Source: Ylistrum balloti (lineage: Eukaryota). Taken from it: a DNA stretch of 64,000 nucleotides. The DNA lies in NCBI RefSeq assembly GCF_031769215.1, contig NW_026782006.1:908070-972069 (forward strand), written 5' to 3'. The number at the start of each line of letters is the position of its first letter. The stretch's first letter is position 1. The position numbers were made by a program, and so were the translations under genes. This document shows positions 1 to 23,800 of this stretch, piece by piece. The notes beneath the pieces were generated by a model. The model searched no databases and was not told where the DNA came from. It saw nothing but the letters and a program-made list of their open reading frames with translations.

Positions 1-1556
1 AGATTATACACACAAAGTGTCTACATCTCTCTCCACCCCCTCTATTAAGTAGGGGTGTGGGGACACTATAACAGATTATACACACAAAGTGTCTATATCT
101 CTCTCCACCCCCTCTATCAAGTAGGGGTGTGGGGACACTATGATAACAGAGATTATAGACACAAAGTGTCTATATCTCCCTCCACCCCCTCTATCAAGTA
201 GGGGTGTGGGGACACTATAATAACAGAGGTTATACACACAAAGTGTCTATATCTCTCTCCACCCCCTCTATCAAGTAGGGGTGTGGGGACACTATGATAA
301 CAGAGATTATACACACAAACTGTCTATATCTCTCTCCACCCCCTCTATCAAGTAGGGGTGTGGGGACACTATGATAATAGAGATTATACACACAAACTGT
401 CTATATCTCTCTCCACCCCCTCTATCAAGTAGGGGTGTGGGGACACTATAACAGATTATACACACAAAGTGTCTACATCTCTCTCCACCCCCTCTATTAA
501 GTAGGGGTGTGGGGACACTATGATAATAGAGATTATACACACAAACTGTCTATATCTCTCTCCACCCCCTCTATCAAGTAGGGGTGTGACACTATAACAG
601 ATTATACACACAAAGTGACACCCCCTCTATTAAGTAGGGGTGTGGGGACACTATAACAGATTATACACACAAAGTGTCTATATCTCTCTCCACCCCCTCT
701 ATCAAGTAGGTGTGTGGGGACACTATGATAACAGAGATTATACACACAAACTGTCTATATTTCCCTCCACCCCCTCTATTAAGTAGGGGTGTGGAGACAC
801 TATGATAACAGAGATTATACACACAAGGTGTCTATATCTCTCTCCACCCCCTCTATCAAGTAGGGGTGTGGGGACACTATGATAATAGAGATTATACACA
901 CAAAGTGTCTACATCTCTCTCCACCCCCTCTATCAAGTAGGGGTGTGGGGACACTATGATAACAGAGATTATACACACAAAGTGTCTATATCTCTCTCCA
1001 CCCCCTCTATCAAGTAGGGGTGTGGGGACACTATGATAATAGAGATTATACACACAAAGTGTCTACATCTCTCTCCACCCCCTCTATCAAGTAGGGGTGT
1101 GGGGACACTATGATAACAGAGATTATACACACAAAGTGTCTATATCTCTCTCCACCCCCTCTATCAAGTAGGGGTGTGGGGACACTATGATAACAGAGAT
1201 TATACACACAAAGTGTCTATATCTCTCTCCACCCCCTCTATCAAGTAGGTGTGTGGGGACACTATAACAGAGATTATACACACAAAGTGTCTATATCTCT
1301 CCACCCCATCTAGTAAGTAGGGGTGTGGGGACACTATAACAGATTATACACACAAAGTGTCTATATCTCTCTCCACCCCATCTATTAAGTAGGGGTGTGG
1401 GGACACTATGATAACAGAGGTTATACATACAAAGTGTCTATATCACTCTCCACCCCCTCTATTAAGTAGGGTGTGGAGACACTATGATAACAGAGATTAT
1501 ACACACAAAGTGTCTATATCTCCCTCCACCCCCTCTTATTTAGTAGGGGTGTGGGA
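1..1556. repeat. Minisatellite, 72/78-bp unit (agattatacacacaaagtgtctatatctctctccaccccctctatcaagtaggggtgtggggacactat[ga]taac), about 20 copies, truncated at window start
   Basis: Direct tandem periodicity; unit holds a C-tract/G-tract near-palindrome (ccccct...agggg). Confidence 0.95.
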
Positions 1557-2544
1557 TTACAAAATAAATATAGGATATTTAATAGTGTCTTCAGTAATAA
1601 CAAATTTTACTTTATATATTGCTACACACTTGTGAAAGATACCAAAATATTAGCCACACGAGTGAAATATATTTGTTATTTCTGAAGACACTATCAAATA
1701 TTCTGTTTATTACATTTTCATTGCAAAAATAAACCAAAAAAATGGCAAACTTACGATAACTATAAAATGGGTAAGTTGACCATGCTTTTTCCAGATACAA
1801 CTCACTCATTATACAACGATGTTGTGTGCGGCAAAAAACAGTCCATTTTATGAAAAATCAGTAAAAATATACAGACTCATGAATAAATCATAATGAATGT
1901 TTATTTGTGTTTGGACATGGATTTTGTAATTTATTGATGTCACTTATACACAATAAAATGGTTTAAACGTAAAGTATGGCGCCCTCCTAGTCGCTGTCAC
2001 TATCAATGACAAAGATAAGATTCTTTTAAATGCCTTGGTTCACTGTCAAGACTCTCAGAACCGGGATGGGTTTGACCACTGATAACATAGAGTAATTGGC
2101 TTGCATCGTCTGCTGACTGCCAAGAAAATGGAAATTTACGGTGGAGTTGAAGGTTGTGTTCCCAGTGCCTAGAATTGGAGTAGATTTGTATTGGGCTCTC
2201 TGATTATTCAATCCTCAAAGTGATATTTTTCACTAGTGAAAAATATAAAAAGGTTATATAGTGAAAAATATCACTTTCATCAGTTTGAGATATCCCTATA
2301 TTTCACTGCTAAAAATGTAATAATACCAAATCACATATCTAGTTGATAAGATTCAAGCTTTTATTGGATATACTCACCTTAGAAGGTATTGGTAATATTC
2401 TATCTTTGGAAAACTGTACCACAGGAGCCCTTCAAATCAAGAATGATGACCATTTAGAAATTATTTCAGGATTGACAATCCATTTTAACATCTATACAAC
2501 AAATTATTCAACAATTGTTTTATAACAAACATTGGAGTACACAT

Positions 2545-3213
2545 CATATAACTCCAGACTATGGTAGACAACATATAACTCAAGGTTATGGTAGACAACA
2601 TATAACTCCAGATTATGGTAGACAACATATAGCTCCAGGTTATTGCAGACAACATATAGCTCCAGGTTATGGTAGACAACATATAACTCCAGATTATGGT
2701 AGACAACATATAGCTCCAGGTTATGGCAGACAACATATCACTTCAGGCTATGGTAGACATGATTGAACTCCAGGTTATGATAGACAACATATAACTTAAG
2801 GATATGATAGACAACATAAAACTTCAGGTTATGGTAAACAACATATAACTCAATGTTATGGTAGACAACATATACCTCCACATATCTCCAGGTTATGGTA
2901 GACATCATTGAACTCCAGACTAAGATAGACAACATATAACTCCAGGTTATGGTAGACAACATATAACTCCAGGCTATGGTAAATAACATATAACTCCAGG
3001 TTATGGTAGACAACATATAACTCCAGGTTATGGTAGACAACATTGAACTCCAGGCTATGTTAGATAACATTTAACTCCAGGCTATGGTAGATAACATATA
3101 ACTCCAGGTTATGGTAGACAACATATAACTCCAGGTTATGGTAGACAACATATAACTCCAGGTTATGGTAGACAACATATAACTCCAGGTTATGGTAGAC
3201 AACATATAACTCT
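2545..3213. repeat. 27-bp minisatellite (ggtagacaacatataactccaggttat), copy 1
   Basis: Tandem periodicity of 27 bp; explains the YGRQHITPG / MLSTITWSY repeat ORFs. Confidence 0.95.
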
Positions 3214-3449
3214 AAGTTGAGACTAAGGTGTTTCACTTTGAAAGGTGGTGATTCAACATAATTTTACAGACCATGTATTTGGTCAGTCAAATTAATACCC
3301 CCTGGTCTTCTGAAAAAAAATAAGAGCAAATTTGTCCAGGATATGCCTAATTTATAAACATGAGAAGTTTGCAAAATATTTTCAGAGTAATATATATCAC
3401 ATTTGTAACATCAAATAGTGCTAATTTACTTGATTAAACATTAAATGAT

Positions 3450-6440
3450 GTAACAATCTAACATCTGATGCTGTAGTACTTACTTATACTGCTCTGACTG
3501 TACACAATCTTACATCTGATGCTGTAGTACTGCTCTGACTGTACACAATCTAACATCTGATGCTGTAGTACTTACTTATACTGCTCTGACTGTACACAAT
3601 CTAACATCTGATGCTGTAGTACTTACTTATACTGCTCTGACTGTACACAATCTAACATCTGATGCTGTAGTACTTACTTATACTGCTCTGACTGTACACA
3701 ATCTAACATCTGATGCTGTAGTACTGCTCTGACTGTACACAATCTAACATCTGATGCTGTAGTACTTACTTATACTGCTCTGACTGTACACAATCTAACA
3801 TCTGATGTACTTACTTATACTGCTCTGACTGTGCTGTAGTACTGCTCTGACTGTACACAATCTAACATCTGATGCTGTAGTACTGCTCTGACTGTACACA
3901 ATCTAACATCTGATGCTGTAGTACTTACTTATACTGCTCTGACTGTACACAATCTAACATCTGATGCTGTAGTACTTACTTATACTGCTCTGACTGTACA
4001 CAATCTAACAACATCTGATGCTGTAGTACTTACTTATACTGCTCTGACTGTACACAATCTAACATCTGATCTGACTGACACAATCTAACACTGATTATAC
4101 TGCTCTGACTGTACACAATCTAACATCTGATGCTGTAGTACTTACTTATACTGCTCTGACTGTACACAATCTAACATCTGATGCTGTAGTACTTACTTAT
4201 ACTGCTCTGACTGTACACAATCTAACATCTGATGCTGTAGTACTTACTTATACTGCTCTGACTGTACACAATCTAACATCTGATGCTGTAGTACTTACTT
4301 ATACTGCTCTGACTGTACACAATCTAACATCTGATGCTGTAGTACTTACTTATACTGCTCTGACTGTAAACAATCTAACATCTGATGCTGTAGTACTTAC
4401 TTATACTGCTCTGACTGTACACAATCTAACATCTGATGCTGTAGTACTGCTCTGACTGTACACAATCTAACATCTGATGCTGTAGTACTGCTCTGACTGT
4501 ACACAATCTAACATCTGATGCTGTAGTACTGCTCTGACTGTACACAATCTAACATCTGATGCTGTAGTACTGCTCTGACTGTACACAATCTAACATCTGA
4601 TGCTGTAGTACTTACTTATACTGCTCTGACTGTACACAATCTAACATCTGATGCTGTAGTACTGCTCTGACTGTACACAATCTAACATCTGATGCTGTAG
4701 TACTGCTCTGACTGTACACAATCTAACATCTGATGCTGTAGTACTTACTTATACTGCTCTGACTGTACACAATCTAACATCTGATGCTGTAGTACTGCTC
4801 TGACTGTACACAATCTAACATCTGATGCTGTAGTACTTACTTATACTGCTCTGACTGTACACAATCTAACATCTGATGCTGTAGTACTTACTTATACTGC
4901 TCTGACTGTACACAATCTAACATCTGATGCTGTAGTACTTACTTATACTGCTCTGACTGTACACAATCTAACATCTGATGCTGTAGTACTTACTTATACT
5001 GCTCTGACTGTACACAATCTAACATCTGATGCTGTAGTACTTACTTATACTGCTCTGACTGTACACAATCTAACATCTGATGCTGTAGTACTTACTTATA
5101 CTGCTCTGACTGTACACAATCTAACATCTGATGCTGTAGTACTTACTTATACTGCTCTGACTGTAGTAACAATCTGTACACAACTAACATCTATGCTGTA
5201 GTACTTACTACTGCTGTATCTAACATCTGATGCTGTAGTACTTACTTATACTGCTCTGACTGTACACAATCTAACATCTGATGCTGTAGTACTGCTCTGA
5301 CTGTACACAATCTAACATCTGATGCTGTAGTACTTACTTATACTGCTCTGACTGTAAACAATCTAACATCTGATGCTGTAGTACTTACTTATACTGCTCT
5401 GACTGTACACAATCTAACATCTGATGCTGTAGTACTTACTTATACTGCTCTGACTGTAAACAATCTAACATCTGATGCTGTAGTACTGCTCTGACTGTAC
5501 ACAATCTAACATCTGATGCTGTAGTACTTACTTATACTGCTCTGACTGTACACAATCTAACATCTGATGCTGTAGTACTTACTTATACTGCTCTGACTGT
5601 ACACAATCTAACATCTGATGCTGTAGTACTTACTTATACTGCTCTGACTGTACACAATCTAACATCTGATGCTGTAGTACTGCTCTGACTGTAAACAATC
5701 TAACATCTGATGCTGTAGTACTTACTTATACTGCTCTGACTGTACACAATCTAACATCTGATGCTGTAGTACTGCTCTGACTGTAAACAATCTAACATCT
5801 GATGCTGTAGTACTTACTTATACTGCTCTGACTGTACACAATCTAACATCTGATGCTGTAGTACTGCTCTGACTGTAAACAATCTAACATCTGATGCTGT
5901 AGTACTTACTTATACTGCTCTGACTGTACACAATCTAACATCTGATGCTGTAGTACTTACTTATACTGCTCTGACTGTACACAATCTAACATCTGATGCT
6001 GTAGTACTGCTCTGACTGTAAACAATCTAACATCTGATGCTGTAGTACTTACTTATACTGCTCTGACTGTACACAATCTAATATCTGATGCTGTAGTACT
6101 GCTCTGACTGTAAACAATCTAACATCTGATGCTGTAGTACTTACTTATACTGCTCTGACTGTACACAATCTAACATCTGATGCTGTAGTACTGCTCTGAC
6201 TGTAAACAATCTAACATCTGATGCTGTAATACTGCTCTGACTGTACACAATCTAACATCTGATGCTGTAGTACTGCTCTGACTGTACACAATCTAACATC
6301 TGATGCTGTAGTACTGCTCTGACTGTAAACAATCTAACATCTGATGCTGTAGTACTTACTTATACTGCTCTGACTGTAAACAATCTAACATCTGATGCTG
6401 TAGTACTTACTTGTACTGCTCTAACTGTAAACAATCTAAC
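3450..6440. repeat. 51/42-bp minisatellite (ctaacatctgatgctgtagtac[ttacttata]ctgctctgactgta[c/a]acaat), copy 1
   Basis: Tandem periodicity; long and short units differ by a 9-bp indel. Confidence 0.95.
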
Positions 6441-7425
6441 ACCTCATACTGGTCTTCTACTTCACAACTCATTTCCAAGGCCAATTCCTCCTCCACTTCT
6501 CTATCCAATTCTGAAGACTTGATTAGAATTTGATATTAATCAGAGCTGTATCAAGCAGAAGTTTTTGTCAGATATTGTTAAGAAATCATTCCCTTATCAG
6601 CATAACCCTTGTCAAAAGTCTTAAGAAATGTGGTTTTCCTCATCTTTGAATTATGGGACCAGTATGAATTTCCAGGTGATAAAATTGACTGTCAATGAAA
6701 AAAATCCTTCATCTTAATTTCTCAATCTATTAACCTGTTTGAAAGTGTTGTTTTCTAATATGATAAACACTAGCAGTGATCAACAGTTGGGATATTAGGG
6801 TATTTTATGTAAATATACTAAATTTGTGTGATCAAATTTTAGTGCATCATTACTCTGGCAAATTAGTACGTTGATGAGCTTGTGTATCCATAGTCAAGAT
6901 CAACATGGAAAACTGGAAAAAATATCAGCTAATCAGGTCACACCAGCCTCATTAAATATGCACAGAATTTGCCAATAATCACACTTTAACAAGAGATTAA
7001 GGTAACAAGTCTACCAACCAAGCCTCCTCATAATTCATTTGTTCCTACAAAAGATAACATGTGGAAAGCATTCAGTTAGAGTGTCACAAAATATCAGCCA
7101 ATCAGGTCACAGCAGTCTCATCAAGTATGCATAGAGTTTGCAGATACTCAAACCTGAAGAAGGAATTAATGTAATAAGTCTATAAAGCAAGTTTCCTAAA
7201 AATTCTTATCATTTCTTCTTAAGATAAGGTGCAGAAAGATTTCCCATAGAGTGATTAAAGAAATCAACCAAGTCACAGCAGCCTCATTAAATATGAGCAG
7301 AATTCACCGTTAGTCAAAATTGGGAGAGGGATTAAGGTAACAAGTGAACCAACCAAGTTTCTTCAAAATTCTACCAGTCCTTCTAAAAATATCGTGTGGA
7401 GAGAAATTAAAGAAAACACTCAATC

Positions 7426-7798
7426 AGGTCACAGCAGCCTCATTATCTCAATCAGGTCACAGCAGTCTCATTATCTCAATCAGGTCACAGTAGCCTCATT
7501 ATCTCAATCAGTTCACAGCAGCCTCATTATCTCAATCAGGTCACAGCAGCCTCATTATCTCAATCAGGTCACAGCAGCCTCATTATCTCAATCAGGTCAC
7601 AGCAGCCTCATTATCTCAATCAGGTCACAGTAGCCTCATTATCTCAATCAGGTCACAGCAGCCTCATTATCTCAATCAGGTCACAGCAGCCTCATTTTTC
7701 AATCAGGTCACAGTAGCCTCATTATCTCAATCAGGTCACAGCAGCCTCATTATCTCAATCAGGTCACAGTAGCCTCATTATCTCAATCAGGTCACAGT
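7426..7798. repeat. 28-bp minisatellite (caggtcacagcagcctcattatctcaat), copy 1
   Basis: Tandem periodicity; derived from a motif inside spacer C. Confidence 0.95.
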
Positions 7799-8017
7799 AC
7801 CAAATCACATATCTAGTTGATAAGATTCAAGCTTTTATTGGATATACTCACCTTAGAAGGTATTGGTAATATTCTATCTTTGGAAAACTGTACCACAGGA
7901 GCCCTTCAAATCAAGAATGATGACCATTTAGAAATTATTTCAGGATTGACAATCCATTTTAACATCTATACAACAAATTATTCAACAATTGTTTTATAAC
8001 AAACATTGGAGTACACA

Positions 8018-9307
8018 TCATATAACTCCAGACTATTGTAGACAACATATAACTCAAGGTTATGGTAGACAACATATAACTCCAGATTATGGTAGACAAC
8101 ATATAGCTCCAGGTTATTGCAGACAACATATAGCTCCAGGTTATGGTAGACAACATATAACTCCAGATTATGGTAGACAACATATAACTTCAGGCTATAG
8201 TAGACAACATATAACTCCAGGTTATGGTAGACAACATATAACTCCAGGTTATGGTAGACAACATATAGCTCCAGGTTATTGCAGACAACATATAACTCAA
8301 GGTTATGGTAGACAACATATAACTCCAGGTTATGGTAGACAACATATATCTCCAGACTATGATAGACAACATATAACTCCAGGTTATGGTAGACAACACA
8401 TAACTTCAGGCTATGAAAGACAACATATACCTCCAGACTATGATAGACAACATATAACTCCAGGTTATGGTAGACAACATATAACTCCAGGTTATGGTAG
8501 ACAACATATAGCTCCAGGTTATTGCAGACAACATATAACTCAAGGTTATGGTAGAAAACATATAACTCCAGGTTATGGTAGACAACATATAGCTCCAGAC
8601 TATGATAGACAACATATAACTCCAGGTTATGGTAGACAACATATAACTTCAGGCTATGGTAGACATCAATGAACTCCAGGCTATGGTAGACAACATATAC
8701 CTCCAGGTTATGGTAGACAACATATAACTCCAGGTTATGGAAGACAACATATAACTCCAGGTTACGGTAGACAACATATAACTCAAGGTTATGGTAGACA
8801 ACATATAGCTCCAGGTTATGGTAGACATCATTGAACTCCAGACTATGGTAGACAACATATAACTCAATGTTATGGTAGACAACATATACCTCCACATATC
8901 TCCAGGTTATGGTAGACATCATTGAACTCCAGACTAAGATAAGACAACATATAACTCCAGGTTATGGTAGACAACATATAACTCCAGGTTATGGTAGACA
9001 ACATATAACTCCAGGCTATGGTAGATAACATATAACTCCAGGTTATGGTAGACAACATATAACTCCAGGTTATGGTAGACAACATTGAACTCCAGGTTAT
9101 GGTAGACAACATTGAACTCCAGGCTATGGTAGATAACATATAACTCAAGGTTATGGTAGACAACATATAACTCCAGGTTATGGTAGACAACATATAACTC
9201 CAGGTTATGGTAGACAACATATAACTCCAGGTTATGGTAGACAACATATAACTCCAGGTTATGGTAGACAACATATAACTCCAGGTTATGGTAGACAACA
9301 TATAACT
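8018..9307. repeat. 27-bp minisatellite, copy 2 (about 48 units)
   Basis: Same unit as 2545-3213. Confidence 0.95.
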
Positions 9308-9549
9308 CTAGGTTGAGACTAAGGTGTTTCACTTTGAAAGGTGGTGATTCAACATAATTTTACAGACCATGTATTTGGTCAGTCAAATTAATACCCCCTG
9401 GTCTTCTGAAAAAAAATAAGAGCAAATTTGTCTAGGATATGCCTAATTTATAAACATGAGAAGTTTGCAAAATATTTTCAGAGTAATATATATCACATTT
9501 GTAACATCAAATAGTGCTAATTTGCTTGATTAAACATTAAATTATGTAA

Positions 9550-11565
9550 CAATCTAACATCTGATGCTGTAGTACTTACTTATACTGCTCTGACTGTAAA
9601 CAATCTAACATCTGATGCTGTAGTACTTACTTATACTGCTCTGACTGTAAACAATCTAACATCTGATGCTGTAGTACTGCTCTGACTGTAAACAATCTAA
9701 CATCTGATGCTGTAGTACTTACTTATACTGCTCTGACTGTAAACAATCTAACATCTGATGCTGTAGTACTTACTTATACTGCTCTGACTGTACACAATCT
9801 AACATCTGATGCTGTAGTACTTACTTATACTGCTCTGACTGTAAACAATCTAACATCTGATGCTGTAGTACTTACTTATACTGCTCTGACTGTAAACAAT
9901 CTAACATCTGATGCTGTAGTACTTACTTATACTGCTCTGACTGTACAGATGTACACAATCTAACATCTGATGCTGTAGTACTTACTTATACTGTTCTGAC
10001 TGTACACAATCTAACATCTGATGCTGTAGTACTTACTTATACTGCTCTGACTGTACACAATCTAACATCTGATGCTGTAGTACTTACTTATACTGCTCTG
10101 ACTGTACACAATCTAACATCTGATGCTGTAGTACTGCTCTGACTGTAAACAATCTAACATCTGATGCTGTAGTACTGCTCTGACTGTACACAATCTAACA
10201 TCTGATGCTGTAGTACTTACTTATACTGCTCTGACTGTACACAATCTAACATCTGATGCTGTAGTACTTACTTATACTGCTCTGACTGTACACAATCTAA
10301 CATCTGATGCTGTAGTACTGCTCTGACTGTACACAATCTAACATCTGAAGCTCTAGTACTTACATATACTGCTCTGACTGTACACAATCTAACATCTGAT
10401 GCTGTAGTACTTACTTATACTGCTCTGACTGTACACAATCTAACATCTGATGCTGTAGTACTGCTCTGACTGTAAACAATCTAACATCTGATGCTGTAAT
10501 ACTGCTCTGACTGTACACAATCTAACATCTGATGCTGTAGTACTTACTTATACTGCTCTGACTGTACACAATCTAACATCTGATGCTGTATTACTGCTCT
10601 GACTGTAAACAATCTAACATCTGATGCTGTAGTACTTACTTATACTGCTCTGACTGTACACAATCTAACATCTGATGCTGTAGTACTGCTCTGACTGTAA
10701 ACAATCTAACATCTGATGCTGTAGTACTGCTCTGACTGTAAACAATCTAACATCTGATGCTGTAGTACTGCTCTGACTGTACACAATCTAACATCTGATG
10801 CTGTAGTACTGCTCTGACTGTACACAATCTAACATCTGATGCTGTAGTACTGCTCTAGTACTGCTCTGACTGTACACAATCTAACATCTGATGCTGTAGT
10901 ACTGCTCTGACTGTAAATAATCTAACATCTGATGCTGTAGTACTTACTTATACTGCTCTGACTGTACACAATCTAACATCTGATGTACTTACTTATACTG
11001 CTCTGACTGTACACAATCTAACATCTACAAATTATACTGCTCTGACTGTACACAATCTAACATCTGATGCTGTAGTACTGCTCTGACTGTACACAATCTA
11101 ACAACAGAGTACTGCTCTGACTGTAAACAATCTAACATCTGATGCTGTAGTACTGCTCTGACTGTACACAATCTAACATCTGATGCTGTAGTACTGCTCT
11201 GACTGTACACAATCTAACATCTGATGCTGTAGTACTTACTTATACTGCTCTGACTGTACACAATCTAACATCTGATGCTGTAGACTTACTTATACTGCTC
11301 TGACTGTACACAATCTAACATCTGATGCTGTAGTACTGCTCTGACTGTAAACAATCTAACATCTGATGCTGTAGTACTTACTTATACTGCTCTGACTGTA
11401 AACAATCTAACATCTGATGCTGTAGTACTGCTCTGACTGTACACAATCTAACATCTGATGCTGTAGTACTTACTTATACTGCTCTGACTGTAAACAATCT
11501 AACATCTGATGCTGTAGTACTTACTTGTACTGCTCTAACTGTAAACAATCTAACACCTCATACTG
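9550..11565. repeat. 51/42-bp minisatellite, copy 2
   Basis: Same unit. Confidence 0.95.
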
Positions 11566-12545
11566 GTCTTCTACTTCACAACTCATTTCCAAGGCCAATT
11601 CCTCCTGTCCCTTCTCTATCCAATTCTGAAGACTTGATTAGAATTTGATATTAATCAGAGCTGTATCAAGCAGAAGTTTTTGTCAGATATTGTTAAGAAA
11701 TCATTCCCTTATCAGCATAACCCTTGTCAAAAGTCTTAAGAAATGTGGTTTTCCTCATCTTTGAATTATGGGACCAGTATGAATTTCCAGGTGATAAAAT
11801 TGACTGTCAATGAAAAAAATCCTTCATCTTAATTTCTCAATCTATTAACCTGTTTGAAAGTGTTGTTTTCTAATATGATAAACACTAGCAGTGATCAACA
11901 GTTGGGATATTAGGGTATTTTATGTAAATATACTAAATTTGTGTGATCAAATTTTAGTGCATCATTACTCTGGCAAATTAGTACGTTGATGAGCTTGTGT
12001 ATCCATAGTCAAGATCAACATGGAAAACTGGAAAAAATATCAGCTAATCAGGTCACACCAGCCTCATTAAATATGCACAGAATTTGCCAATAATCACACT
12101 TTAACAAGAGATTAAGGTAACAAGTCTACCAACCAAGCCTCCTCATAATTCATTTGTTCCTACAAAAGATAACATGTGGAAAGCATTCAGTTAGAGTGTC
12201 ACAAAATATCAGCCAATCAGGTCACAGCAGTCTCATCAAGTATGCATAGAGTTTGCAGATACTCAAACCTGAAGAAGGAATTAATGTAATAAGTCTATAA
12301 AGCAAGTTTCCTAAAAATTCTTATCATTTCTTCTTAAGATAAGGTGCAGAAAGATTTCCCATAGAGTGATTAAAGAAATCAACCAAGTCACAGCAGCCTC
12401 ATTAAATATGAGCAGAATTCACCGTATGTCAAAATTGGGAGAGGGATTAAGGTAACAAGTGAACCAACCAAGTTTCTTCAAAATTCTACCAGTCCTTCTA
12501 AAAATATCGAGTGGAGAGAAATTAAAGAAAACACTCAATCAGGTC

Positions 12546-12864
12546 ACAGCAGCCTCATTATCTCAATCAGGTCACACATTATCTCAATCATCACAGTAGC
12601 CTCATTATCTCAATCAGTTCACAGCAGCCTCATTATCTCAATCAGGTCACAGCAGCCTCATTATCTCAATCAGGTCACAGCAGCCTCATTATCTCAATCA
12701 GGTCACAGTCATTATCTCAATCAGGTCACAAGTAGCCTCATTATCTCAATACAGGTCACAGCAGCCTCATTATCTCAATCAGGTCACAGTACACATTATC
12801 TCAATCAGGTCACAGTAGCCTCATTATCTCAATCAGGTCACACATATCTCAATCAGGTCACTGT
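12546..12864. repeat. 28-bp minisatellite, copy 2
   Basis: Same unit. Confidence 0.9.
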
Positions 12865-13086
12865 ACCAAATCACATATCTAGTTGATAAGATTCAAGCTT
12901 TTATTGGATATACTCACCTTAGAAGGTATTGGTAATATTCTATCTTTGGAAAACTGTACCACAGGAGCCCTTCAAATCAAGAATGATGACCATTTAGAAA
13001 TTATTTCAGGATTGACAATCCATTTTAACATCTATACAACAAATTATTCAACAATTGTTTTATAACAAACATTGGAGTACACATCA

Positions 13087-13508
13087 TATAACTCCAGACT
13101 GTAGACAACATATAACTCTGAGGTTATAGTAGACAACATATAACTCCAGATTATGGTAGACAACATATAGCTCCAGGTTATTGCAGACAACATATAGCTC
13201 CAGGTTATGGTAGACAACATATAACTCCAGATTATGGTAGACAACATATAACTTCAGGCTATGATAGACAACATATAACTCCAGGTTATGGTAGACAACA
13301 TATAGCTCCAGGTTATTGCAGACAACATATAACTCAAGGTTATGGTAGACAACATATAACTCCAGGTTATGGTAGACAACATATACTCCAGACTATGTAG
13401 ACAACATATAACTCAGGTTATGGTAGACAACATATAACTCCAGGTTATGGTAGACAACTGTAGTACAACATTAACTCCAGGTTATGGTAGACAACATATA
13501 ACTCTTAT
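13087..13508. repeat. 27-bp minisatellite, copy 3, degenerate with many small indels
   Basis: Same unit but decayed; runs directly into the 51-bp array with spacer B missing. Confidence 0.8.
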
Positions 13509-15605
13509 GGTAGACTAACATCTGAACAATATCTAACATCTGATGCTGTAGTACAACTTATAACTGCTCTGACTGTACTGCTCTGACTAACTCTGATGCT
13601 GTAGTACTTAAACTGCTCTGACTGTACACAATCTAACATCTAACATATACTGCTCTGACTGTACACAATCTAACATCTGATGCTGTAGTACTTACTTATA
13701 CTGCTCTGACTGTACACAATCTAACATCTGATGCTGTAGTACTTACTGACTGTAAACAATACTGCTCTGATGCCTACTTACAACATGTAGAATTTAACAT
13801 CTGATGCTGTACTTACTATATACTGCTCTGACTGTACACAATCTAACATCTGATGCTGTAGCTTACTTATACTGCTCTGACTGTACACAATCTAACATCT
13901 GATGCTGTAGTACTTACTTATACTGCTCTGACTGTAATCTAACAATCTAACATCTGATGCTGTAGTACTTACTTATACTGCTCTGACTGTACACAATCTA
14001 ACATCTGATGCTGTAGTACTGCTCTGACTGTACACAATCTAACATCTGATGCTGTAGTACTGCTCTGACTGTACACAATCTAACATCTGATGCTGTAGTA
14101 CTGCTCTGACTGTAAACAATCTAACATCTGATGCTGTAGTACTGCTCTGACTGTACACAATCTAACATCTGATGCTGTACTGCTCTGACTGTACACAATC
14201 TAACATCTGACTGTAGTACTTACTTATACTGCTCTGACTGTACACAATCTAACATCTGATGCTGTAGTACTGCTCTGACTGTACACAATCTAACATCTGA
14301 TGCTGTAGTACTTACTTATACTGCTCTGACTGTACACAATCTAACATCTGATGCTGTAGTACTGTACACAATCTAACATCTACTTATACTGCTCTGACTG
14401 TACACAATCTAACATCTGATGCTGTAGTACTTACTTATACTGCTCTGACTGTACACAATCTAACATCTGATGCTGTACTGCTCTGACTGTACACAATCTA
14501 ACATCTGATGCTGTAGTACTGCTCTGACTGTACACAATCTAACATCTGATGCTGTAGTACTTACTTATACTGCTCTGACTGTACACAATCTAACATCTGA
14601 TGCTGTAGTACTTACTTATACTGCTCTGACTGTAAACAATCTAACATCTGATAGCTGCTCTGACTGTACACAATCTAACATCTGATGCTTATACTGCTCT
14701 GACTGTACACAATCTAACATCTGATGCTGTAGTACTTACTTATACTGCTCTGACTGTACACAATGACTGTACACAATCTAACATCTGATGCTGTAGTACT
14801 TACTTATACTGCTCTGACTGTACACAATCTAACATCTGATGCTGTAGTACTGCTCTGACTGTACACAATCTAACATCTGATGCTGTAGTACTTACTTATA
14901 CTGCTCTGACTGTAAACAATCTAACATCTGATGCTGTAGTACTGCTCTGACTGTACACAATCTAACATCTGATGCTGTAGTACTTACTTATACTGCTCTG
15001 ACTGTACACAATCTAACATCTGATGCTGTAGTACTTACTTATACTGCTCTGACTGTACACAATCTAACATCTGATGCTGTAGTACTGCTCTGTACACAAT
15101 CTAACATCTGATGCTGTAGTACTTACTTATACTGCTCTGACTGTACACAATCTAACATCTGATGCTGTAGTACTTACTTATACTGCTCTGACTGTAAACA
15201 ATCTAACATCTGATGCTGTAGTACTTACTTATACTGCTCTGACTGTACACAATCTAACATCTGATGCTGTAGTACTGCTCTGACTGTAAACAATCTAACA
15301 TCTGATGCTGTAGTACTGCTCTGACTGTACACAATCTAACATCTGATGCTGTAGTACTGCTCTGACTGTAAACAATCTAACATCTGATGCTGTAGTACTG
15401 CTCTGACTGTAAACAATCTAACATCTGATGCTGTAGTACTGCTCTGACTGTAAACAATCTAACATCTGATGCTGTAGTACTGCTCTGACTGTAAACAATC
15501 TAACATCTGATGCTGTAGTACTTACTTATACTGCTCTGACTGTAAACAATCTAACATCTGATGCTGTAGTACTTACTTGTACTGCTCTAACTGTAAACAA
15601 TCTAA
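13509..15605. repeat. 51/42-bp minisatellite, copy 3 (5-prime part scrambled)
   Basis: Same unit; first ~1.3 kb has many indels. Confidence 0.9.
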
Positions 15606-16595
15606 CACCTCATACTGGTCTTCTACTTCACAACTCATTTCCAAGGCCAATTCCTCCTTCCCTTCTCTATCCAATTCTGAAGACTTGATTAGAATTTGAT
15701 ATTAATCAGAGCTGTATCAAGCAGAAGTTTTTGTCAGATATTGTTAAGAAATCATTCCCTTATCAGCATAACCCTTGTCAAAAGTCTTAAGAAATGTGGT
15801 TTTCCTCATCTTTGAATTATGGGACCAGTATGAATTTCCAGGTGATAAAATTGACTGTCAATGAAAAAAATCCTTCATCTTAATTTCTCAATCTATTAAC
15901 CTGTTTGAAAGTGTTGTTTTCTAATATGATAAACACTAGCAGTGATCAACAGTTGGGATATTAGGGTATTTTATGTAAATATACTAAATTTGTGTGATCA
16001 AATTTTAGTGCATCATTACTCTGGCAAATTAGTACGTTGATGAGCTTGTGTATCCATAGTCAAGATCAACATGGAAAACTGGAAAAAATATCAGCCAATC
16101 AGGTTACACCAGCCTCATTAAATATGCACAGAATTTGCCAATAATCACACTTTAACAAGAGATTAAGGTAACAAGTCTACCAACCAAGCCTCCTCATAAT
16201 TCATTTGTTCCTACAAAAGATAACACGTGGAAAGCATTCAGTTAGAGTGTCACAAAATATCAGCCAATCAGGTCACAGCAGTCTCATCAAGTATGCATAG
16301 AGTTTGCAGATACTCAAACCTGAAGAAGGAATTAATGTAATAAGTCTGTAAAGCAAGTTTCCTAAAAATTCTTATCATTTCTTCTTAAGATAAGGTGCAG
16401 AAAGATTTCCCATAGAGTGATTAAAGAAATCAACCAAGTCACAGCAGCCTCATTAAATATGAGCAGAATTCACCGTTAGTCAAAATTGGGAGAGGGATTA
16501 AGGTAACAAGTGAACCAACCAAGTTTCTTCAAAATTCTACCAGTCCTTCTAAAAATATCGTGTGGAGAGAAATTAAAGAAAACACTCAATCAGGT

Positions 16596-16810
16596 CACAG
16601 CAGCCTCATTATCTCAATCAGGTCACATCAGCCTCATTATCTCAATCAGGTCACAGTAGCCTCATTATCTCAATCAGGTCACATCAGCCTCATTATCTCA
16701 ATCAGGTCACATCAGCCTCATTATCTCAATCAGGTCACAGTAGCCTCATTATTTCAATCATGTCACAGTAGCCTCATTATCTTGATCAGGTCACAGTAGC
16801 CTCATTATCT
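16596..16810. repeat. 28-bp minisatellite, copy 3
   Basis: Same unit. Confidence 0.9.
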
Positions 16811-17054
16811 ATGTGCAGAATTTGCTGTTTATCAAACTTGGTCAAGGGATTAATTTAACAAGGGTACCAACCAGGTTTCATGAAAATTTGATATTTTCAT
16901 TTGGTGTTTAAGTTAATTCTCTCACAATTATCTAATTAGATCAAAGTAGTTACTATAGCAGAGATCCCGGTGCATTAAACACTTCTCAAAAGTTAATCAT
17001 AAAAAAAGACACAGTCATAAGGGATATGGGAAGAACTCAACGTTATAATTCCCT

Positions 17055-18515: not shown

Positions 18516-18982
18516 GAGATACACCCAGTTAAATTCCTTTTAACTACTAAAGAAAAAACTTACAGGATAGAACAGTTTCTTTTCCAATATTTCCTAACAA
18601 ATCAAATAAAGATAATTATGTTATGTGTAAAGAACTGGCTGTTATTAGAATATAAAATTAAAAAAAAACAAAAGGAAAAAAAAAACAAAAACATGTAATA
18701 ATTAAATTTTTTTTAAAAATCAACAAGGTTCATTAAGATATACACCCTATCCACAATCCTTTTGATTTCAACAACGGGTTAGATGTTACCTAAAATACAT
18801 TGACTATTGACCAAAATATAACCATATAAAGGTCTCACTGATTAACAATATCGTAGTTATCTTGTACACAGGCCTTAACTTGTGCATAATATTAGCCTTC
18901 AATAAGTAAGGGTGGAAATTCAAATGTATAGTTACTGAAATTATCATCATGTTGTGAGGTAGTTAGGCAAACAGGAAATCAG

Positions 18983-19478
18983 AGATATTATGATGGTAAA
19001 GACTCACACCATTATAGATATTACGATGGTAAAGACTCACACCATTATAGATATTACGATGGTAAAGACTCACACCATTATAGATATTACGATGGTAAAG
19101 ACTCACACCATTATAGATATTACGATGGTAAAGACTCACACCATTATAGATATTATGATGGTAAAGACTCACACCATTATAGATATTACGATGGTAAAGA
19201 CTCACTCACACCATTATAGATATTACGATGGTAAAGACTCACAACATTATAGATATTACGATGGTAAAGACTCACACCATTATAGATATTACGATGGTAA
19301 AGACTCACACCATTATAGATATTACGATGGTAAAGACTCACACCATTATAGATATTACGATGGTAAAGACTCACACCATTATAGATATTACGATGGTAAA
19401 GACTCACACCATTATAGATATTACGATGGTAAAGACTCACACCATTATAGATATTATGATGGTAAAGACTCACATTGT
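18983..19478. repeat. 33-bp minisatellite (attatagatattacgatggtaaagactcacacc), about 15 copies
   Basis: Tandem periodicity; unit is a multiple of 3, which gives spurious repeat ORFs on both strands. Confidence 0.95.
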
Positions 19479-20087
19479 CAGGAGAATACTCGGCTGAATC
19501 AGCATTAGAAGACTCCTCCTATTAACAAACAAGAGTGACGTAGTGACAGGACATTTTTACTGACTCGATGGAAACAATTCTGAATAGGTGACAATTTACT
19601 GTAAAATGTCTAGTTGTTAGTGATCTCCTGATGAATATAGGACAGCATCAAAAACCAGTTCTAATTGTTTAAGATGCCTTAGATTTAGTATCATCATGTT
19701 TCATTGCTGGATTTTGGTACTACTTTGATGAAATTTAATTTAGCACATACATGACCTTTTATAAAAGCCAAGAAGAACAGTCCTAAAATCTAAATTAAAT
19801 TCAACCTCAGGCCTGAAGCCTTGACTGCCACATGATGTAAGCAATACTGAATATAAAGGTTAAAGGGTAAGTAGCTTTTAAGTGTGATGAAAAAGATATT
19901 GAGATATTAATGATAGTAAGTCTTAATTGATAAGATTCAAGTTCTTGAGGGTCAATATATGCATACAGTCAAAACTGTAATCCTTTACTAAAAATTCTTA
20001 TTAAGTTATTTCCAGTGGAAAATAAATAATAATAAAAATACAATTTTCCTAAAAAAAAAACAAAATAGTAAACTTCTTCCCTTCCCA

Positions 20088-20590
20088 AAGGAGGAATGTG
20101 AGACCCTGGGGTTAAGAAATTCATAATTTTGGTAAAGCCACCTTAAAACCTTTCCATCCATGAAGAGCGTATCTAGGTGTTGAGAAGATGATTTTTGAAA
20201 TTTTAGTAAATTTAGCCCCATCCATCAGCCCCTGGAGGTTAGCCAGGATCAATATGTGCATATCATCAAGCTGTCATCCTTTGAAAATAATTTTAACCAA
20301 GTTTGAAATATTTCCAATGGAAATGAAACAAATTAAGCTCAAAAATGCACTTTACATATACAAACTGTAGCAAGCTTTACTCCTCCATAGGGGAAAATGT
20401 GAGACCCTGGGGAGGGGGTACCAAGGTTACCAATTTTGGTTACCCTAAGACCTATCCATACAGGAAGAGCATTTGATTCTACCATGAGAAGAGAAAGATT
20501 TTTGAAATTTGAGTCAATTGGACCCCTTTTGGACCCACCCCTCAGGCCCCTGCTAACAGGTGACCATATAATTCACTAAATTTTTTCATC
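20088..20590. mobile_element. Two tandem diverged copies (~295 bp) of a SINE-like interspersed element (core ...aatgtgagaccctgggg...), overlapping the PARP4 stop codon and 3-prime UTR
   Basis: Copy a 20088-20382 and copy b 20383-~20590 align along their length at about 70% identity. Confidence 0.6.
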
Positions 20591-20845
20591 ATTGGCCAGG
20601 GCAGGCTTCCGCAAAATTTCACTGAAAACAGTTTGGAGGATTTTAAGATGCAGAATGCCAGATACAAAGCAATGATTGTAATTGGTCAGCATAAAACTCT
20701 GTCTCAGGTGAACTAAAATTCTTACATCTGGTGCGATAACTTCCCACAATTCATCTAGAACAACATGAGGGCCAAGATATGTACAAATTTCAGTATGTTC
20801 CAACATTAGCAGGTCATCAATATCTGGTGAGGTCACCTCTTCATC
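20576..20845 (-). CDS. PARP4: PARP4 terminal exon as modelled DEEVTSPDIDDLL...ILRKPALANDEKI, stop at 20578-20576
   Basis: Acceptor cagtgtttctttcag|; open frame of 89 codons to TAG; an internal GAT|gtaaga at about 20715 could instead be a donor, so the true 3-prime end is uncertain. Confidence 0.5.
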   Translation of the reverse strand, partial: DEEVTSPDIDDLLMLEHTEICTYLGPHVVLDELWEVIAPDVRILVHLRQSFMLTNYNHCFVSGILHLKILQTVFSEILRKPALANDEKI

Positions 20846-23800
20846 CTGAAAGAAACACTGGTCATCATAAATTTTATATGTATACAGAACAAACTAATCA
20901 GACAAGCATACAGACATTTTATTTTATCATTGGACTAATATGATTGACAGTACAGACCAAAAATGTGATATCTGACCCTCAAAGTCAAATGTGTGAGATT
21001 CAACATATGATAGTCAAATATATGACAAACTAGAAAAGTTTTTCTGTGCGCAAAATTTTAAATCAAATGTTAACCAATTTCTCCCTCAATACCTGGCAGC
21101 AAAGTTAAAAAAAAGAAATGAATTTTTGTAACAATACAGTTAACATAACATATGTCCAATTCAGAGTTTCAATTAAATTATTTGTTCTTTCCCTCAATCA
21201 AACCTTGTCACGCTTCTCAACAGCTATGAAGCTTGTCAGCTGAGTGACGATGGAGAACTCCTTGCTCAGTCTGATAATGTAATCCTTCATGTCCATCTTC
21301 ATCCTCTGTCAAGGTGAAAGGATAAAGGTGACTGCACAAAAACACATCAGAAATGATGCAACACCACTACATTTACAAAAAACCTGAAGTTTTATTTTAA
21401 AGTTTGACCTTGAAGTACAATCCTTAAAATTTGACCTTGAAATACAAACAATGTCCAGCTTTTCTCATATTTGACCAAAGATGATGTTCTTAAAATACAA
21501 ATCTCACCTGTTGATTGAGACCGTCTGATGACAAGAGTCCATCCTCCCAGTCACGGATGATAGCTTTGGCTGCCAGCTGGTGCAAAATCTGTCGTAACAT
21601 AAATAAAGTGAGGGATAGAGGAGATTCAACACCTTGAGATGTATTGGTGATCATATTGGTAAAAGGACCACTTTCTGAAATCAATTTACATGAGATCCAA
21701 CGATATTAATTTGGACAAATATCCAAAGTAACAAACAATTTGATTATGTGAGTTTTACCTTTCCTTTAGATACATAGCGGTCAGATTTGGTCACTACAGC
21801 CGATATTTCTTGGTCACCTATTTCAGCGGTCAGGGTTGCCTGTGAAGTAATACAGCGTTGTTATATAGTCATTTCCTCAAGTCACAAAGAGCAGACCTGT
21901 ATTTTGCCATCATAAGCCCATGAGTATAAAAGTAAGTCAAGAGATTTGAAATATTGTGCCTAAATATCAATCTAGCAAAATTATACATAAAGTTGGCACA
22001 ATCAAACTTACATACATGGAAAATTGTCAGAATGTATCACAGATCACATGGCAGTGATTTCCTGAGAAATTCCAGTCAGATGAGTTCTATTCCCTCATGG
22101 ATCACTTTGATGTGAAGAAAGTTAAGTTTAACTACTAGTATAGCTTTTAACTATAATGCCACAAAACAATCTGACACCAGCCTATGAAAACTTCCACTTC
22201 ATTCTTTGAATTAAGAGAGCTTCACATAAACATGCTTAGATTGAAATTTCAATACAATCAATAAATATGATACATTAGCCATCAAAAGATAGTACATGGC
22301 TATTACAGGACTGACATAACATTTCCCATAAATTCCCATCACTAAGGTTTTTTATGTTCCTGCAAATTGAAATGGTCATATACACCAACCCAACAATACC
22401 TGGGTTTTCCTCAATACTCTGGTTTCCTCCCTCATTAAGACCCCACACTTACTCCAGGCTAACAACAGTGATTCATATTTTTAGCTACAAGTGTTTTTGC
22501 AATAGTTGTAAAATGAAGTTAATATGAAGATTTGACATGAAGGACATATAGAAGCACTTACGCTGGCACAGTTCTGAACAAATCCATAAACTACTATCCT
22601 TGATCCACTAAATACAGCTGTAATTTGATTGGGTGCCTGTTTTGGAGGCGGAGCACCATATTCCTGTTGCCAGGAGACAGCCACTGATGTCAGTCCAGGT
22701 TGACCTGCTTTAGCAATCTGGGACTTCACCTTGGAAAATCCGAGAACATTCATTTGAAAACTGGGAGATCATCCCCCCTCCATACAACTGTTAACACTCT
22801 CTACAATTAAACATGCTAATATGACCAAGAAACAAATATCATCAAGTCGTTTGTACCGCTGGGCTTGATACATCTTCTTAGTTAGATTGGTTCAGCAAAA
22901 GACTAGTAAGCCAAAGGTCACGAGTTCGAATTGTAAAGGAGGCATTGAAATCAATTATGATCTTGATTACAAGTTTAACACTTGTATAGAGACTTGGGAA
23001 TGATACTTTGCATTGCTTTAACCACTAGACACTCAAGGACAAGTTCTTTCCTAAAGGGAGAGTAAGTAACCCTGGTAAAATACTAGCCACAGTATACTGG
23101 TAAGCTGGAGAGATTTTTGGTTTGACTGGGGCATGACAAGTAAACCAGAGCATCTGGAGTTGATCATTACCAGAGGCTTTAAAACAAATAATGACCTCTG
23201 TTACATATCCAAATCATGAAACCATAACAAAACAACTTGTTTTAATGTATTCAGATTACCTATCTTATAAAAGTATCTCGTTAATAATGTGTTTTACCTT
23301 TTCTTCCCACTTTGACTTTGCTTTACTATCAAATCCTTCGAATACTCCAGCTCCAACACGAGCCAGTGCTCCAAGCACGTGACGGTTCATCATACTGCTG
23401 TAATAAATAGAAAAGAATGAAGCCCACAGTCGTTAATGGTCTTTAACAGCAGGGAGAAGGGATATTTTTTCTATTTTGAATGAAATCTTTCTAAAAGTAT
23501 GATTTTCAAGATGGCAGTCATGGTGGCCATCTTGGATTTCAGAGAGACCCAAAAAATAACAATCCTTTGTCAGGACCATCTCAGGATCATTTCATGCAAG
23601 TTTGAGCTCAATTCCTCTGTTGGAACTTCAGAAGAAGTTAAAATGTCAGAAGTTTATGCACGGTGAATGACAATTGACGAAGCCTGATCATGACCCTTAG
23701 GGTTAGATGACCTTACAAATATATATAGATTAATAAAAGAATAAACAAGGACAGTGATGTTACACAAGGTGGGAGGAAATAATCATTGTATCAATATTTT

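What the first reader, a model, noticed from the sequence alone, without database searches (positions are those of the whole stretch)
2325..16810. A 5-kb higher-order repeat made of three unrelated minisatellites, present three times
Near-identical spacers A (contains the thrice-repeated 60-codon ORF MIRFKLLLD...) and C recur with a period of 5474 then 5066 bp. Each copy carries the 27-bp, 51/42-bp and 28-bp arrays in the same order. This points to a very recent segmental tandem triplication of an already composite satellite. Such nested architecture is typical of young satellite DNA and could seed a larger array.
Basis: seen in the sequence. Interest (0 to 1): 0.6.

Follow-up and report, generated by a model that had tools for sequence, protein, structure and literature searches.

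The report
Triplicated minisatellite block beside scallop PARP4
A 5-kb stretch of non-coding scallop DNA that already held three unrelated short-repeat arrays was copied head-to-tail into three copies; this is an ordinary structural duplication whose history can be read unusually clearly, not a new kind of element.

Summary
Window 2324-16810 is three direct copies (5474, 5066 and 3947 bp) of one block: spacer A, a 27-bp array, spacer B, a 51/41-bp array, spacer C (which includes three old ~169-bp repeats), and a 28-bp array. Both internal junctions are identical: a 28-mer cut at ...CACAG|TA|CCAAAT, with 2-bp TA microhomology to the left flank. The third copy reads on into the rest of a fourth 169-bp unit. 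This points to one founding non-homologous junction that was then re-used. Unique spacers are 99.3-100% identical, with star-like private substitutions. The arrays are colinear at their ends but differ up to 3-fold in length, and copy 3 has lost spacer B. There are no terminal inverted repeats, target-site duplications, exons, Pfam hits or Rfam hits. The window comes from the scallop Ylistrum balloti. The block lies on the 3' side of a PARP4-like gene, probably inside a giant minisatellite-laden intron; about 44% of the window is unrelated minisatellites. It is a tandem segmental triplication, meeting published descriptions of composite or nested tandem repeats. It is not a satellite higher-order repeat. 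Copy number cannot be verified without reads. Interest is low to moderate.

The parts
2217..2277 (.). Perfect 19-bp-stem hairpin (it also contains a 24-nt perfect palindrome), 47 bp left of the left breakpoint. It is a candidate replication-fork stalling site.
   Evidence: DNA fold -20.5 kcal/mol, z=-6.4, 0 of 200 shuffles as stable
2324..7797 (+). Copy 1 of the duplicated block (5474 bp): A 2324-2536; 27-bp array 2537-3212 (~25 units); B 3213-3448; 51/41-bp array 3449-6441 (~60 units); C 6442-7418; 28-bp array 7419-7797 (~13.6 units).
7798..12863 (+). Copy 2 (5066 bp): A 7798-8010; 27-bp array 8011-9314 (~48 units); B 9315-9544; 51/41-bp array 9545-11555 (~42 units); C 11556-12533; 28-bp array 12534-12863 (~11.5 units, many small internal deletions).
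12864..16810 (+). Copy 3 (3947 bp): A 12864-13076; 27-bp array 13077-13504 (~14-16 units); spacer B deleted, with a scrambled 27/51 junction at ~13505-13650; 51/41-bp array to 15607 (~42 units); C 15608-16584; 28-bp array 16585-16810 (~8 units).
7784..7812 (+). Junction 1: a truncated B-type 28-mer ...AATCAGGTCACAG joined to TACCAAATCACAT. The TA at 7798-7799 is shared by the 28-mer (CACAGTAGCC) and the left flank (AATAATACCAAAT), giving 2-bp microhomology.
12850..12878 (+). Junction 2: the same junction (...AATCAGGTCACTG|TACCAAATCACAT), with one substitution 2 bp from the join.
6919..7418 (+). Three old ~165-169-bp tandem units (70-79% alike) inside spacer C, repeated at 12034-12533 and 16085-16584. 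The first ~28 nt of this unit is the source of the 28-bp minisatellite.
   Evidence: (family D12)
16811..16921 (+). Remainder of a fourth ~169-bp unit, following directly after the third 28-bp array. This shows that the right edge of the block is original sequence and that the 28-bp array grew inside that unit.
   Evidence: 78-79% to units at 7293-7370 and equivalents
2343..2525 (+). There is no evidence that it is coding.
18543..20848 (-). Context: the last exons of the annotated PARP4-like gene (XP_060065436.1), at 20848-20726, 19518-19474 and 18593-18543. The duplicated block lies 1.7 kb beyond the model's end, on the gene's 3' side.

Best explanation
This is a real, lineage-specific, non-coding tandem segmental triplication in the scallop Ylistrum balloti. 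The ancestral locus was single-copy: left flank, A, 27-bp array, B, 51/41-bp array, C with four old ~169-bp repeats, and a 28-bp minisatellite that had grown from the head of the fourth 169-bp unit. One non-homologous event joined a point inside the 28-bp array to a point 5.4 kb upstream, using 2 bp (TA) of microhomology. The likely process was replication template switching (break-induced replication) or end joining, perhaps helped by the array and by a perfect hairpin 47 bp from the upstream breakpoint. That produced a head-to-tail duplication. The same junction was then copied again, by a second switch in the same event, by unequal crossing-over between the two 5.4-kb copies, or by rolling-circle re-integration, giving three copies. 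Afterwards the unique spacers accumulated ~0.5% pairwise differences. The minisatellites mutated far faster: arrays now differ up to 3-fold in length, with conserved ends and reshuffled interiors, and copy 3 lost spacer B. Shown: the anatomy, the junctions, colinearity of the copies, absence of transposon or coding hallmarks, and the genomic context. Inferred: the molecular pathway, the order of the steps, that the block is transcribed as part of a giant PARP4 intron, and that it has no function of its own.
For: Three direct copies with the same part order. Spacer A is 213/213 identical in all three copies. Spacer C has private changes of 2 (c1), 3+1 indel (c2) and 4 (c3, all transitions), a star-like and real-looking substitution pattern. 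Both internal junctions are the same non-homologous join with TA microhomology. Copy 3 continues into the remainder of a 169-bp unit, so the block edges are arbitrary breakpoints and not element termini. In the variant-repeat maps, the 27-bp arrays share the 5' string E-B-C-F-B in copies 1 and 2 and B-C-F-B in copy 3. Copies 1 and 2 share a similar 3' run (I...J...A-K...A-A-A). The 51/41 arrays share similar, not identical, 3' ends (ssssLL in copy 1, sLsLL in copy 2, ssssssLL in copy 3). There is no inverted k-mer of 7 or more between unit ends, no TSD, and no other copy of A, B or C in the window. No Pfam or Rfam hit. There is a hairpin with z=-6.4 beside the left breakpoint. A published head-to-tail triplication has equal amplicons, identical breakpoints, one breakpoint in a short tandem repeat and a hairpin-forming element at the other, and was attributed to microhomology-mediated break-induced replication (PMC8165465). 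Host and context: CHMP1B and PARP4-like proteins of Y. balloti match the window's exons at or near 100%.
Against: No reads are available, so the copy number (3 rather than 2 or N) and the contiguity of the assembly here are unverified. Copy 2's 28-bp array and copy 3's 27/51 junction carry many small deletions (TRF 12% indels against 0-1% in the window's other arrays); this could be consensus noise in a hard-to-polish region. Two base pairs of microhomology do not discriminate end joining from replication-based switching. The role of the hairpin is circumstantial. Three-copy data cannot be rooted, so one-step and two-step origins are not separable. Whether the block is intronic is inferred from orthologues only.
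Confidence: 0.8

Rival explanations
1. Assembly artefact. The true locus has one or two copies, and haplotype variants or mis-overlapped long reads across the arrays were chained into three tandem copies.
For: The host is a scallop; scallops are highly heterozygous (my own knowledge). The copies differ mainly in array length, as alleles would. There is indel-rich, noisy sequence in copy 2's 28-bp array and at copy 3's 27/51 junction. 72% of the block is minisatellite, which is hard to assemble.
Against: There are no Ns in the window. The junction is a specific non-homologous join that must exist in reads at least once. It occurs twice, with one nearby substitution distinguishing the two. Spacer differences are mostly clean substitutions, including 4 of 4 transitions private to copy 3, and not the homopolymer indels typical of read error. 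Copy 3 has a distinct deletion of spacer B. The total span of 14.5 kb is within the length of a single long read.
Confidence: 0.12
2. A mobile element with internal tandem repeats (Helentron/Helitron-type or MITE-type, as described in oysters) that inserted or amplified in tandem.
For: In bivalves, short satellite arrays are often carried inside Helitron/Helentron elements (PMC8268682). Hairpins and palindromes lie in the left flank.
Against: The unit's right end lies inside a minisatellite, and in copy 3 it reads straight on into the interrupted 169-bp unit. There are no TIRs or TSDs at unit or block ends. No second copy of any spacer occurs elsewhere in 64 kb on either strand. No transposase, Rep or helicase ORF is present.
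Confidence: 0.03
3. An emerging satellite or macrosatellite. The unit is already amplified to many copies here or elsewhere, is polymorphic in the population, and the three assembled copies are a collapsed sample.
For: The unit size (~5 kb) and composite make-up resemble macrosatellites and the 'composite elements' of the human T2T annotation. Tandem copies of 5 kb favour further unequal exchange.
Against: Both outer edges of the block are joined to unique sequence within one contig. The copies are individually distinguishable. There is no hit elsewhere in the window or in searchable collections, although the host genome itself could not be searched.
Confidence: 0.05

Closest known systems
Head-to-tail tandem duplication/triplication CNVs with microhomology junctions (FoSTeS/MMBIR or end joining), e.g. 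the 20q11.21 amplicon in human pluripotent stem cells (PMC8165465)
   Same: Direct orientation. Every copy boundary carries the same breakpoint pair. One breakpoint lies inside a short tandem repeat. A hairpin-forming sequence sits next to the other breakpoint. There is microhomology at the join.
   Different: The microhomology here is only 2 bp, so classical end joining is equally possible. The amplicon is 5.4 kb rather than hundreds of kb. It is germline-fixed in an assembly and not culture-acquired. Its content is 72% minisatellite.
'Composite elements' of the T2T-CHM13 repeat annotation (Hoyt et al., bioRxiv 10.1101/2021.07.12.451456), e.g. TELO-composite with its variable 49-bp 'ajax' array
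   Same: A repeating unit built from three or more different repeated sequences, arranged in tandem, with an internal array that varies in length between units.
   Different: There are only three copies at one locus. No transposon-derived subunits were recognised. No evidence exists of multi-locus spread or of concerted evolution.
Nested tandem repeats (NTRFinder, PMC3273788), as in rDNA intergenic spacers
   Same: [quoted passage not shown]
   Different: The formal definition has short motifs directly interspersed. Here the arrays are kb-scale and separated by 0.2-1 kb unique spacers, and the recurrence comes from one block duplication rather than from motif-level processes.
Satellite higher-order repeats (alpha-satellite type) and macrosatellites (e.g. 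D4Z4, DXZ4; from my own knowledge)
   Same: Copies of the large unit are far more alike than the sub-repeats within it. The unit is kb-scale.
   Different: HOR monomers belong to one family, whereas here the sub-repeats are unrelated. Satellites and macrosatellites have tens to thousands of copies; here there are three.
Bivalve satellite arrays carried by Helentron/MITE-like elements (PMC8268682 and references therein)
   Same: Bivalve host; short arrays scattered through gene-rich DNA.
   Different: No shared flanks, TIRs or TSDs, and no dispersed copies in the window. The monomers are 27-51 bp rather than ~160-180 bp.

Membership tests
Head-to-tail tandem segmental duplication/triplication | All copies in direct orientation and contiguous | tested here: met
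Head-to-tail tandem segmental duplication/triplication | The same novel (non-homologous) junction at each internal copy boundary | tested here: met
   ...GGTCAC(A/T)G|TACCAAATCAC at 7797/7798 and 12863/12864
Head-to-tail tandem segmental duplication/triplication | Outer edges continuous with ancestral flanking sequence | tested here: met
   the left flank is unique; the right edge continues into the rest of the interrupted 169-bp unit
Head-to-tail tandem segmental duplication/triplication | Copy number supported by reads or depth | not testable with these tools
   No reads are available, and the Y. balloti locus is not on record in the contig collection
Microhomology-mediated replication-based origin (FoSTeS/MMBIR) | Microhomology at the junction, typically more than the 0-4 bp seen with end joining | tested here: inconclusive
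   Only 2 bp (TA) are shared; this is compatible with both NHEJ and template switching (thresholds as discussed in PMC8165465)
ODIRA-type triplication | Middle copy inverted, with junctions at short inverted repeats | tested here: not met
   All three copies are direct; definition from PMC11790251
Satellite higher-order repeat | Unit composed of diverged monomers of one family | tested here: not met
   The 27-, 51- and 28-bp units are no more alike than shuffles
Satellite higher-order repeat | Long homogeneous array of many HOR copies | tested here: not met
   Three copies, bounded by unique sequence
Composite element (T2T-CHM13 sense) | [quoted passage not shown] | tested here: met
   The unit holds 27-bp, 51/41-bp, 169-bp and 28-bp repeats; definition
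Composite element (T2T-CHM13 sense) | Occurs as arrays and/or monomers at several genomic locations | not testable with these tools
   The host genome could not be searched; the unit is absent elsewhere in the window
Nested tandem repeat | [quoted passage not shown] | tested here: met
   definition. It is met only in the broad sense, because long unique spacers intervene.
Macrosatellite | kb-scale unit in tandem, with copy number polymorphic between individuals | not testable with these tools
   The unit size is met (5.4 kb); polymorphism needs population data
Transposable element with internal tandem repeats (Helentron/MITE-like) | Defined termini (TIRs or a terminal hairpin) and target-site duplication | tested here: not met
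   no inverted k-mer of 7 or more between unit ends, and the longest direct flank match is 4 bp; the right end lies within an array
Transposable element with internal tandem repeats (Helentron/MITE-like) | Multiple dispersed copies | tested here: inconclusive
   None in the 64-kb window; genome-wide not testable
Protein-coding repeat or exon duplication | An open frame with homology or conservation inside the unit | tested here: not met
   The 60-aa ORF has no Pfam hit. The candidate acidic exon in spacer C is not better than shuffles and is frameshifted in copy 2. No orthologous PARP4 exon is detected.

The most novel reading that the evidence does not exclude
The triplicated block, together with the surrounding 19+ kb of unrelated minisatellites, may have functionally split or truncated the PARP4 (vault PARP) gene in Ylistrum balloti. 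The annotated product is 1243 aa against 2115 aa in Pecten. Alternatively, the block may be an actively expanding, copy-number-polymorphic proto-macrosatellite inside that gene, caught at the three-copy stage.
Probability: 0.1. Interest if true: 0.45.

Novelty: new member of a known kind. Interest (0 to 1): 0.25.

Why it matters
The block is a clean natural example of how composite kb-scale tandem units arise. Both breakpoints are exact and the ancestral right edge is preserved. The three copies also serve as an internal clock: over the same interval, unique spacers changed by ~0.5% while the minisatellites changed up to 3-fold in length and lost a spacer. That gives a direct within-locus comparison of array turnover against point mutation, and shows a minisatellite acting as a breakpoint substrate. 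For annotation it matters practically. The block sits where the RefSeq PARP4-like model of this scallop stops about 870 residues short of its Pecten orthologue, so repeat-laden introns like this may be breaking gene models in bivalve genomes. It does not reveal a new mechanism or element class.

Tried and rejected
(1) Transposon origin. No TIR, TSD or dispersed copies were found, and the unit edge lies inside an array.
(2) Coding content. An acidic minus-strand stretch at 6443-6520 looked exon-like, but 300 of 1000 shuffles score as well against the Argopecten acidic region, and copy 2 has a frameshift.
(3) Structured RNA. There were no Rfam hits at gathering score for the window, or at E<0.1 for 1500-8100, and no tRNAs.
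(4) External copies. The repeat cores are absent from full-text literature and from metagenome contigs (both scans spent). The prokaryotic genome collection was not scanned, as it is irrelevant.
(5) Finding the window's own record. Ten window ORFs are not in the protein collection. The Y. balloti CHMP1B and PARP4 loci are not on record.
(6) Tracing PARP4 C-terminal exons into the block. I used molluscan homologues, the Argopecten C-terminal model, and per-exon Smith-Waterman alignment; nothing rose above noise below 19.4 kb.
(7) Nucleotide homology of window 1-21 kb to the orthologous Argopecten gene region. There is none outside exons, so the age of the arrays cannot be bracketed by that comparison.
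(8) Rooting the three copies to order the duplication steps. This is impossible with three taxa, and the changes are star-like.
(9) ODIRA. Rejected because no copy is inverted.
Full report
OBSERVATION. Tandem Repeats Finder and the repeat finder confirm that window 2324-16810 holds the same ordered set of parts three times.
- The parts are spacer A (213 bp), a 27-bp minisatellite, spacer B (~235 bp), a 51/41-bp minisatellite, spacer C (~977 bp) and a 28-bp minisatellite.
- The copy lengths are 5474, 5066 and 3947 bp. Of the 14,487 bp, 72% is minisatellite.
- Spacer A is identical in all three copies. Spacer C differs at 5-8 positions per pair. BLAST E-values of 1e-109 and below exclude chance.
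  - Spacer C recurs at 5115 and 4051 bp, not 5474 and 5066.
  - The short unit variant is 41 bp.
  - Copy 3 has lost spacer B.
  - The 'thrice-repeated ORF' is a TTG-initiated 60-codon frame in spacer A, with no family match.

ANATOMY AND HISTORY. The 27-, 51- and 28-bp units are no more similar to each other than shuffled controls.

The 28-mer matches the first ~28 nt of a ~169-bp repeat. Three diverged copies of that repeat (70-79% alike) form the right half of spacer C. After the third 28-bp array, the sequence continues as the remainder of a fourth 169-bp unit (16811-~16921). So the 28-bp array grew inside that fourth unit, and the right edge of the whole block is ancestral sequence.

At the two internal boundaries, a truncated 28-mer is joined to the first base of spacer A...AATCAGGTCAC(A/T)G|TACCAAATCACAT. 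The dinucleotide TA is present both in the 28-mer (CACAGTAGCC) and in the original left flank (AATAATACCAAAT). The join therefore has 2 bp of microhomology.

Two identical non-homologous junctions mean a single founding rearrangement whose product was copied again.

Variant-repeat maps support duplication of pre-existing arrays rather than independent growth.
- The 27-bp arrays share the 5' string E-B-C-F-B in copies 1 and 2 and B-C-F-B in copy 3.
- Copies 1 and 2 share a similar 3' run (I...J...A-K...A-A-A).
- Copies 2 and 3 share C-G-A.
- The 51/41 arrays share similar, not identical, 3' ends: ssssLL in copy 1, sLsLL in copy 2, ssssssLL in copy 3.
- The array interiors are reshuffled, and array lengths now differ up to 3-fold (27-bp: ~25, ~48 and ~14-16 units).

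In spacer C the substitutions are star-like: 2 private to copy 1, 3 plus one indel private to copy 2, and 4 private to copy 3, all four of them transitions. Spacers B1 and B2 differ by 4 substitutions. Pairwise divergence in unique sequence is about 0.5% for each pair. That fits a one-step or rapid two-step origin. Three copies cannot be rooted, so the order of steps is not recoverable.

WHAT IT IS NOT.
- Not a mobile element. There is no inverted k-mer of 7 or more between unit ends and no target-site duplication. No other copy of A, B, C or the flanks occurs on either strand in the masked window. The unit's right end lies within an array.
- Not coding. No long ORFs exist outside the arrays. 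The only exon-like stretch, at 6443-6520 on the minus strand, is no better than shuffles and is frameshifted in copy 2.
- Not a known RNA.
- Not an inverted (ODIRA-type) triplication, because all copies are direct (definition in PMC11790251).

CONTEXT. The window is nuclear DNA of the saucer scallop Ylistrum balloti.
- A CHMP1B gene model from the window is 98% identical to the scallop cluster. Its variable exon matches Y. balloti XP_060065416.1 exactly.
- The exons of PARP4-like XP_060065436.1 map at or near 100% identity, from 45463 down to 18543 on the minus strand.
- Pfam confirms BRCT, PARP, VIT and VWA domains, and an Npa1/URB1 exon at 59.3 kb.
- Gene order (URB1, CHMP1B, PARP4) is shared with Pecten maximus; the URB1-CHMP1B part is also seen in Argopecten irradians.

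The Pecten PARP4 product is 2115 aa, whereas the Y. balloti model stops at 1243 aa. Its terminal mini-exon is wedged between two arrays.

In Argopecten the gene continues ~38 kb past the exon orthologous to window 20.8 kb. That stretch contains many small acidic exons, a 481-aa proline-rich exon, and its own unrelated minisatellites, including a 7-kb 38-bp array.

None of those C-terminal exons is detectable in window 1-19.4 kb. The short ones evolve too fast to expect detection. The block therefore most probably lies in a very long, repeat-filled intron of PARP4, with the remaining exons beyond the window's left end. Less probably, it lies downstream of a truncated gene.

About 44% of the whole window consists of more than 20 mutually unrelated minisatellites, mostly intronic. 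So the three arrays in the unit are typical of the neighbourhood and are not a special 'satellite'.

MECHANISM (inferred). A break or stalled fork within the 28-bp array was resolved by joining to, or priming at, a TA 5.4 kb upstream. This created a head-to-tail duplication.

A perfect 19-bp-stem hairpin lies 47 bp from the upstream breakpoint (z=-6.4). It is a plausible fork barrier, but this is circumstantial.

A second switch at the same site, unequal exchange between the two 5.4-kb copies, or rolling-circle re-integration then added the third copy. These alternatives cannot be distinguished from sequence alone.

A published triplication has the same signature: equal amplicons, identical breakpoints, one breakpoint in a short tandem repeat, and a hairpin-forming element at the other. 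It was attributed to microhomology-mediated break-induced replication (PMC8165465). With only 2 bp of microhomology here, classical end joining remains equally possible.

COMPARISON WITH KNOWN CLASSES.
- It meets the definition of a head-to-tail tandem segmental triplication.
- It meets the broad definition of a nested tandem repeat.
- It fails the defining features of a satellite higher-order repeat, which requires monomers of one family and many copies.
- It fails the defining features of transposon-borne arrays such as those described in oysters.

CAVEATS. No reads were available, so three copies rather than two or N is unverified. Copy 2's 28-bp array and copy 3's 27/51 junction are unusually rich in small deletions. 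That may reflect polishing noise in a region with three near-identical templates. The host genome could not be searched for other copies.

VERDICT. This is a genuine, well-resolved but ordinary structural feature: a new member of a known kind. Its value is as a clean example of how composite tandem units are born at a minisatellite breakpoint, as a within-locus contrast between array turnover and point mutation, and as a flag for a probably truncated PARP4 gene model.

Noticed in passing
window 1-64000: About 44% of the window consists of more than 20 mutually unrelated minisatellite arrays (units 25-77 bp, 0.2-3.2 kb each). Most lie in introns of the PARP4-like and URB1 genes. The orthologous Argopecten gene region (L003) carries different arrays, e.g. 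a 38-bp unit x183 (7 kb), implying fast lineage-specific birth and turnover of intronic minisatellites in scallops.
   Followed up: partly
window 18543-45463 (minus strand): The PARP4 (vault PARP)-like gene: the RefSeq model XP_060065436.1 is 1243 aa, against 2115 aa in Pecten maximus. Its last exon (18593-18543, ...EILEKKLFYPVSFFFSS*) sits between a 74-bp and a 33-bp array and looks like a forced terminus. The conserved C-terminal exons are not in the window.
   Followed up: partly
window 54624-54526 and 53369-53274 (minus strand): There are two alternative versions of the same N-terminal CHMP1B exon (HLFNLKFAAKDLERNAKRSEK... and QLFNLKYSARSLLRFANKCDKEER...). The second has clean splice sites. 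Both are conserved at 88-92% nucleotide identity in a combined Pecten+Argopecten query, not resolved by species, suggesting mutually exclusive exons.
   Followed up: no
window 19948-20626, 23495-23663, 29484-29958: Single or double copies of repeat families that form tandem arrays in other scallops: a 324-bp array in L001, a 146-bp array in L003, and a 155-bp array in L001 and L003 (68-83% identity). These are dispersed families conserved across genera, possibly transposon-derived satellites.
   Followed up: partly
window 1-1555 and 1572-1704: A 77-bp minisatellite whose unit contains a G/C-rich hairpin (CCACCCCCTC...GGGGTGTGGGG) runs off the left end of the window. It is followed immediately by an inverted repeat with 34-bp arms (91% complementary, 65-nt loop).
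   Followed up: no
window 12534-12863 and 13505-13650: Copy 2's 28-bp array and copy 3's 27/51 transition contain many small internal deletions and scrambled unit fragments (TRF 12% indels), whereas most other arrays in the window have 0-1% indels. This is either real decay or template-switch scars, or consensus and polishing noise.
   Followed up: partly
window 63502-63944; L001 2774-3138: The 25/75-bp array next to a URB1 exon is the only array in the window with detectable nucleotide similarity (74-80%) to an array (27-bp unit) at the corresponding place in Pecten maximus. It may be older or constrained.
   Followed up: no
L003 18706-23638 (Argopecten irradians): A 47-bp array is interrupted by a 146-bp-unit array (47-bp x26, then 146-bp x10.6, then 47-bp x40). 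This is another nested arrangement inside the same gene in a different scallop.
   Followed up: no
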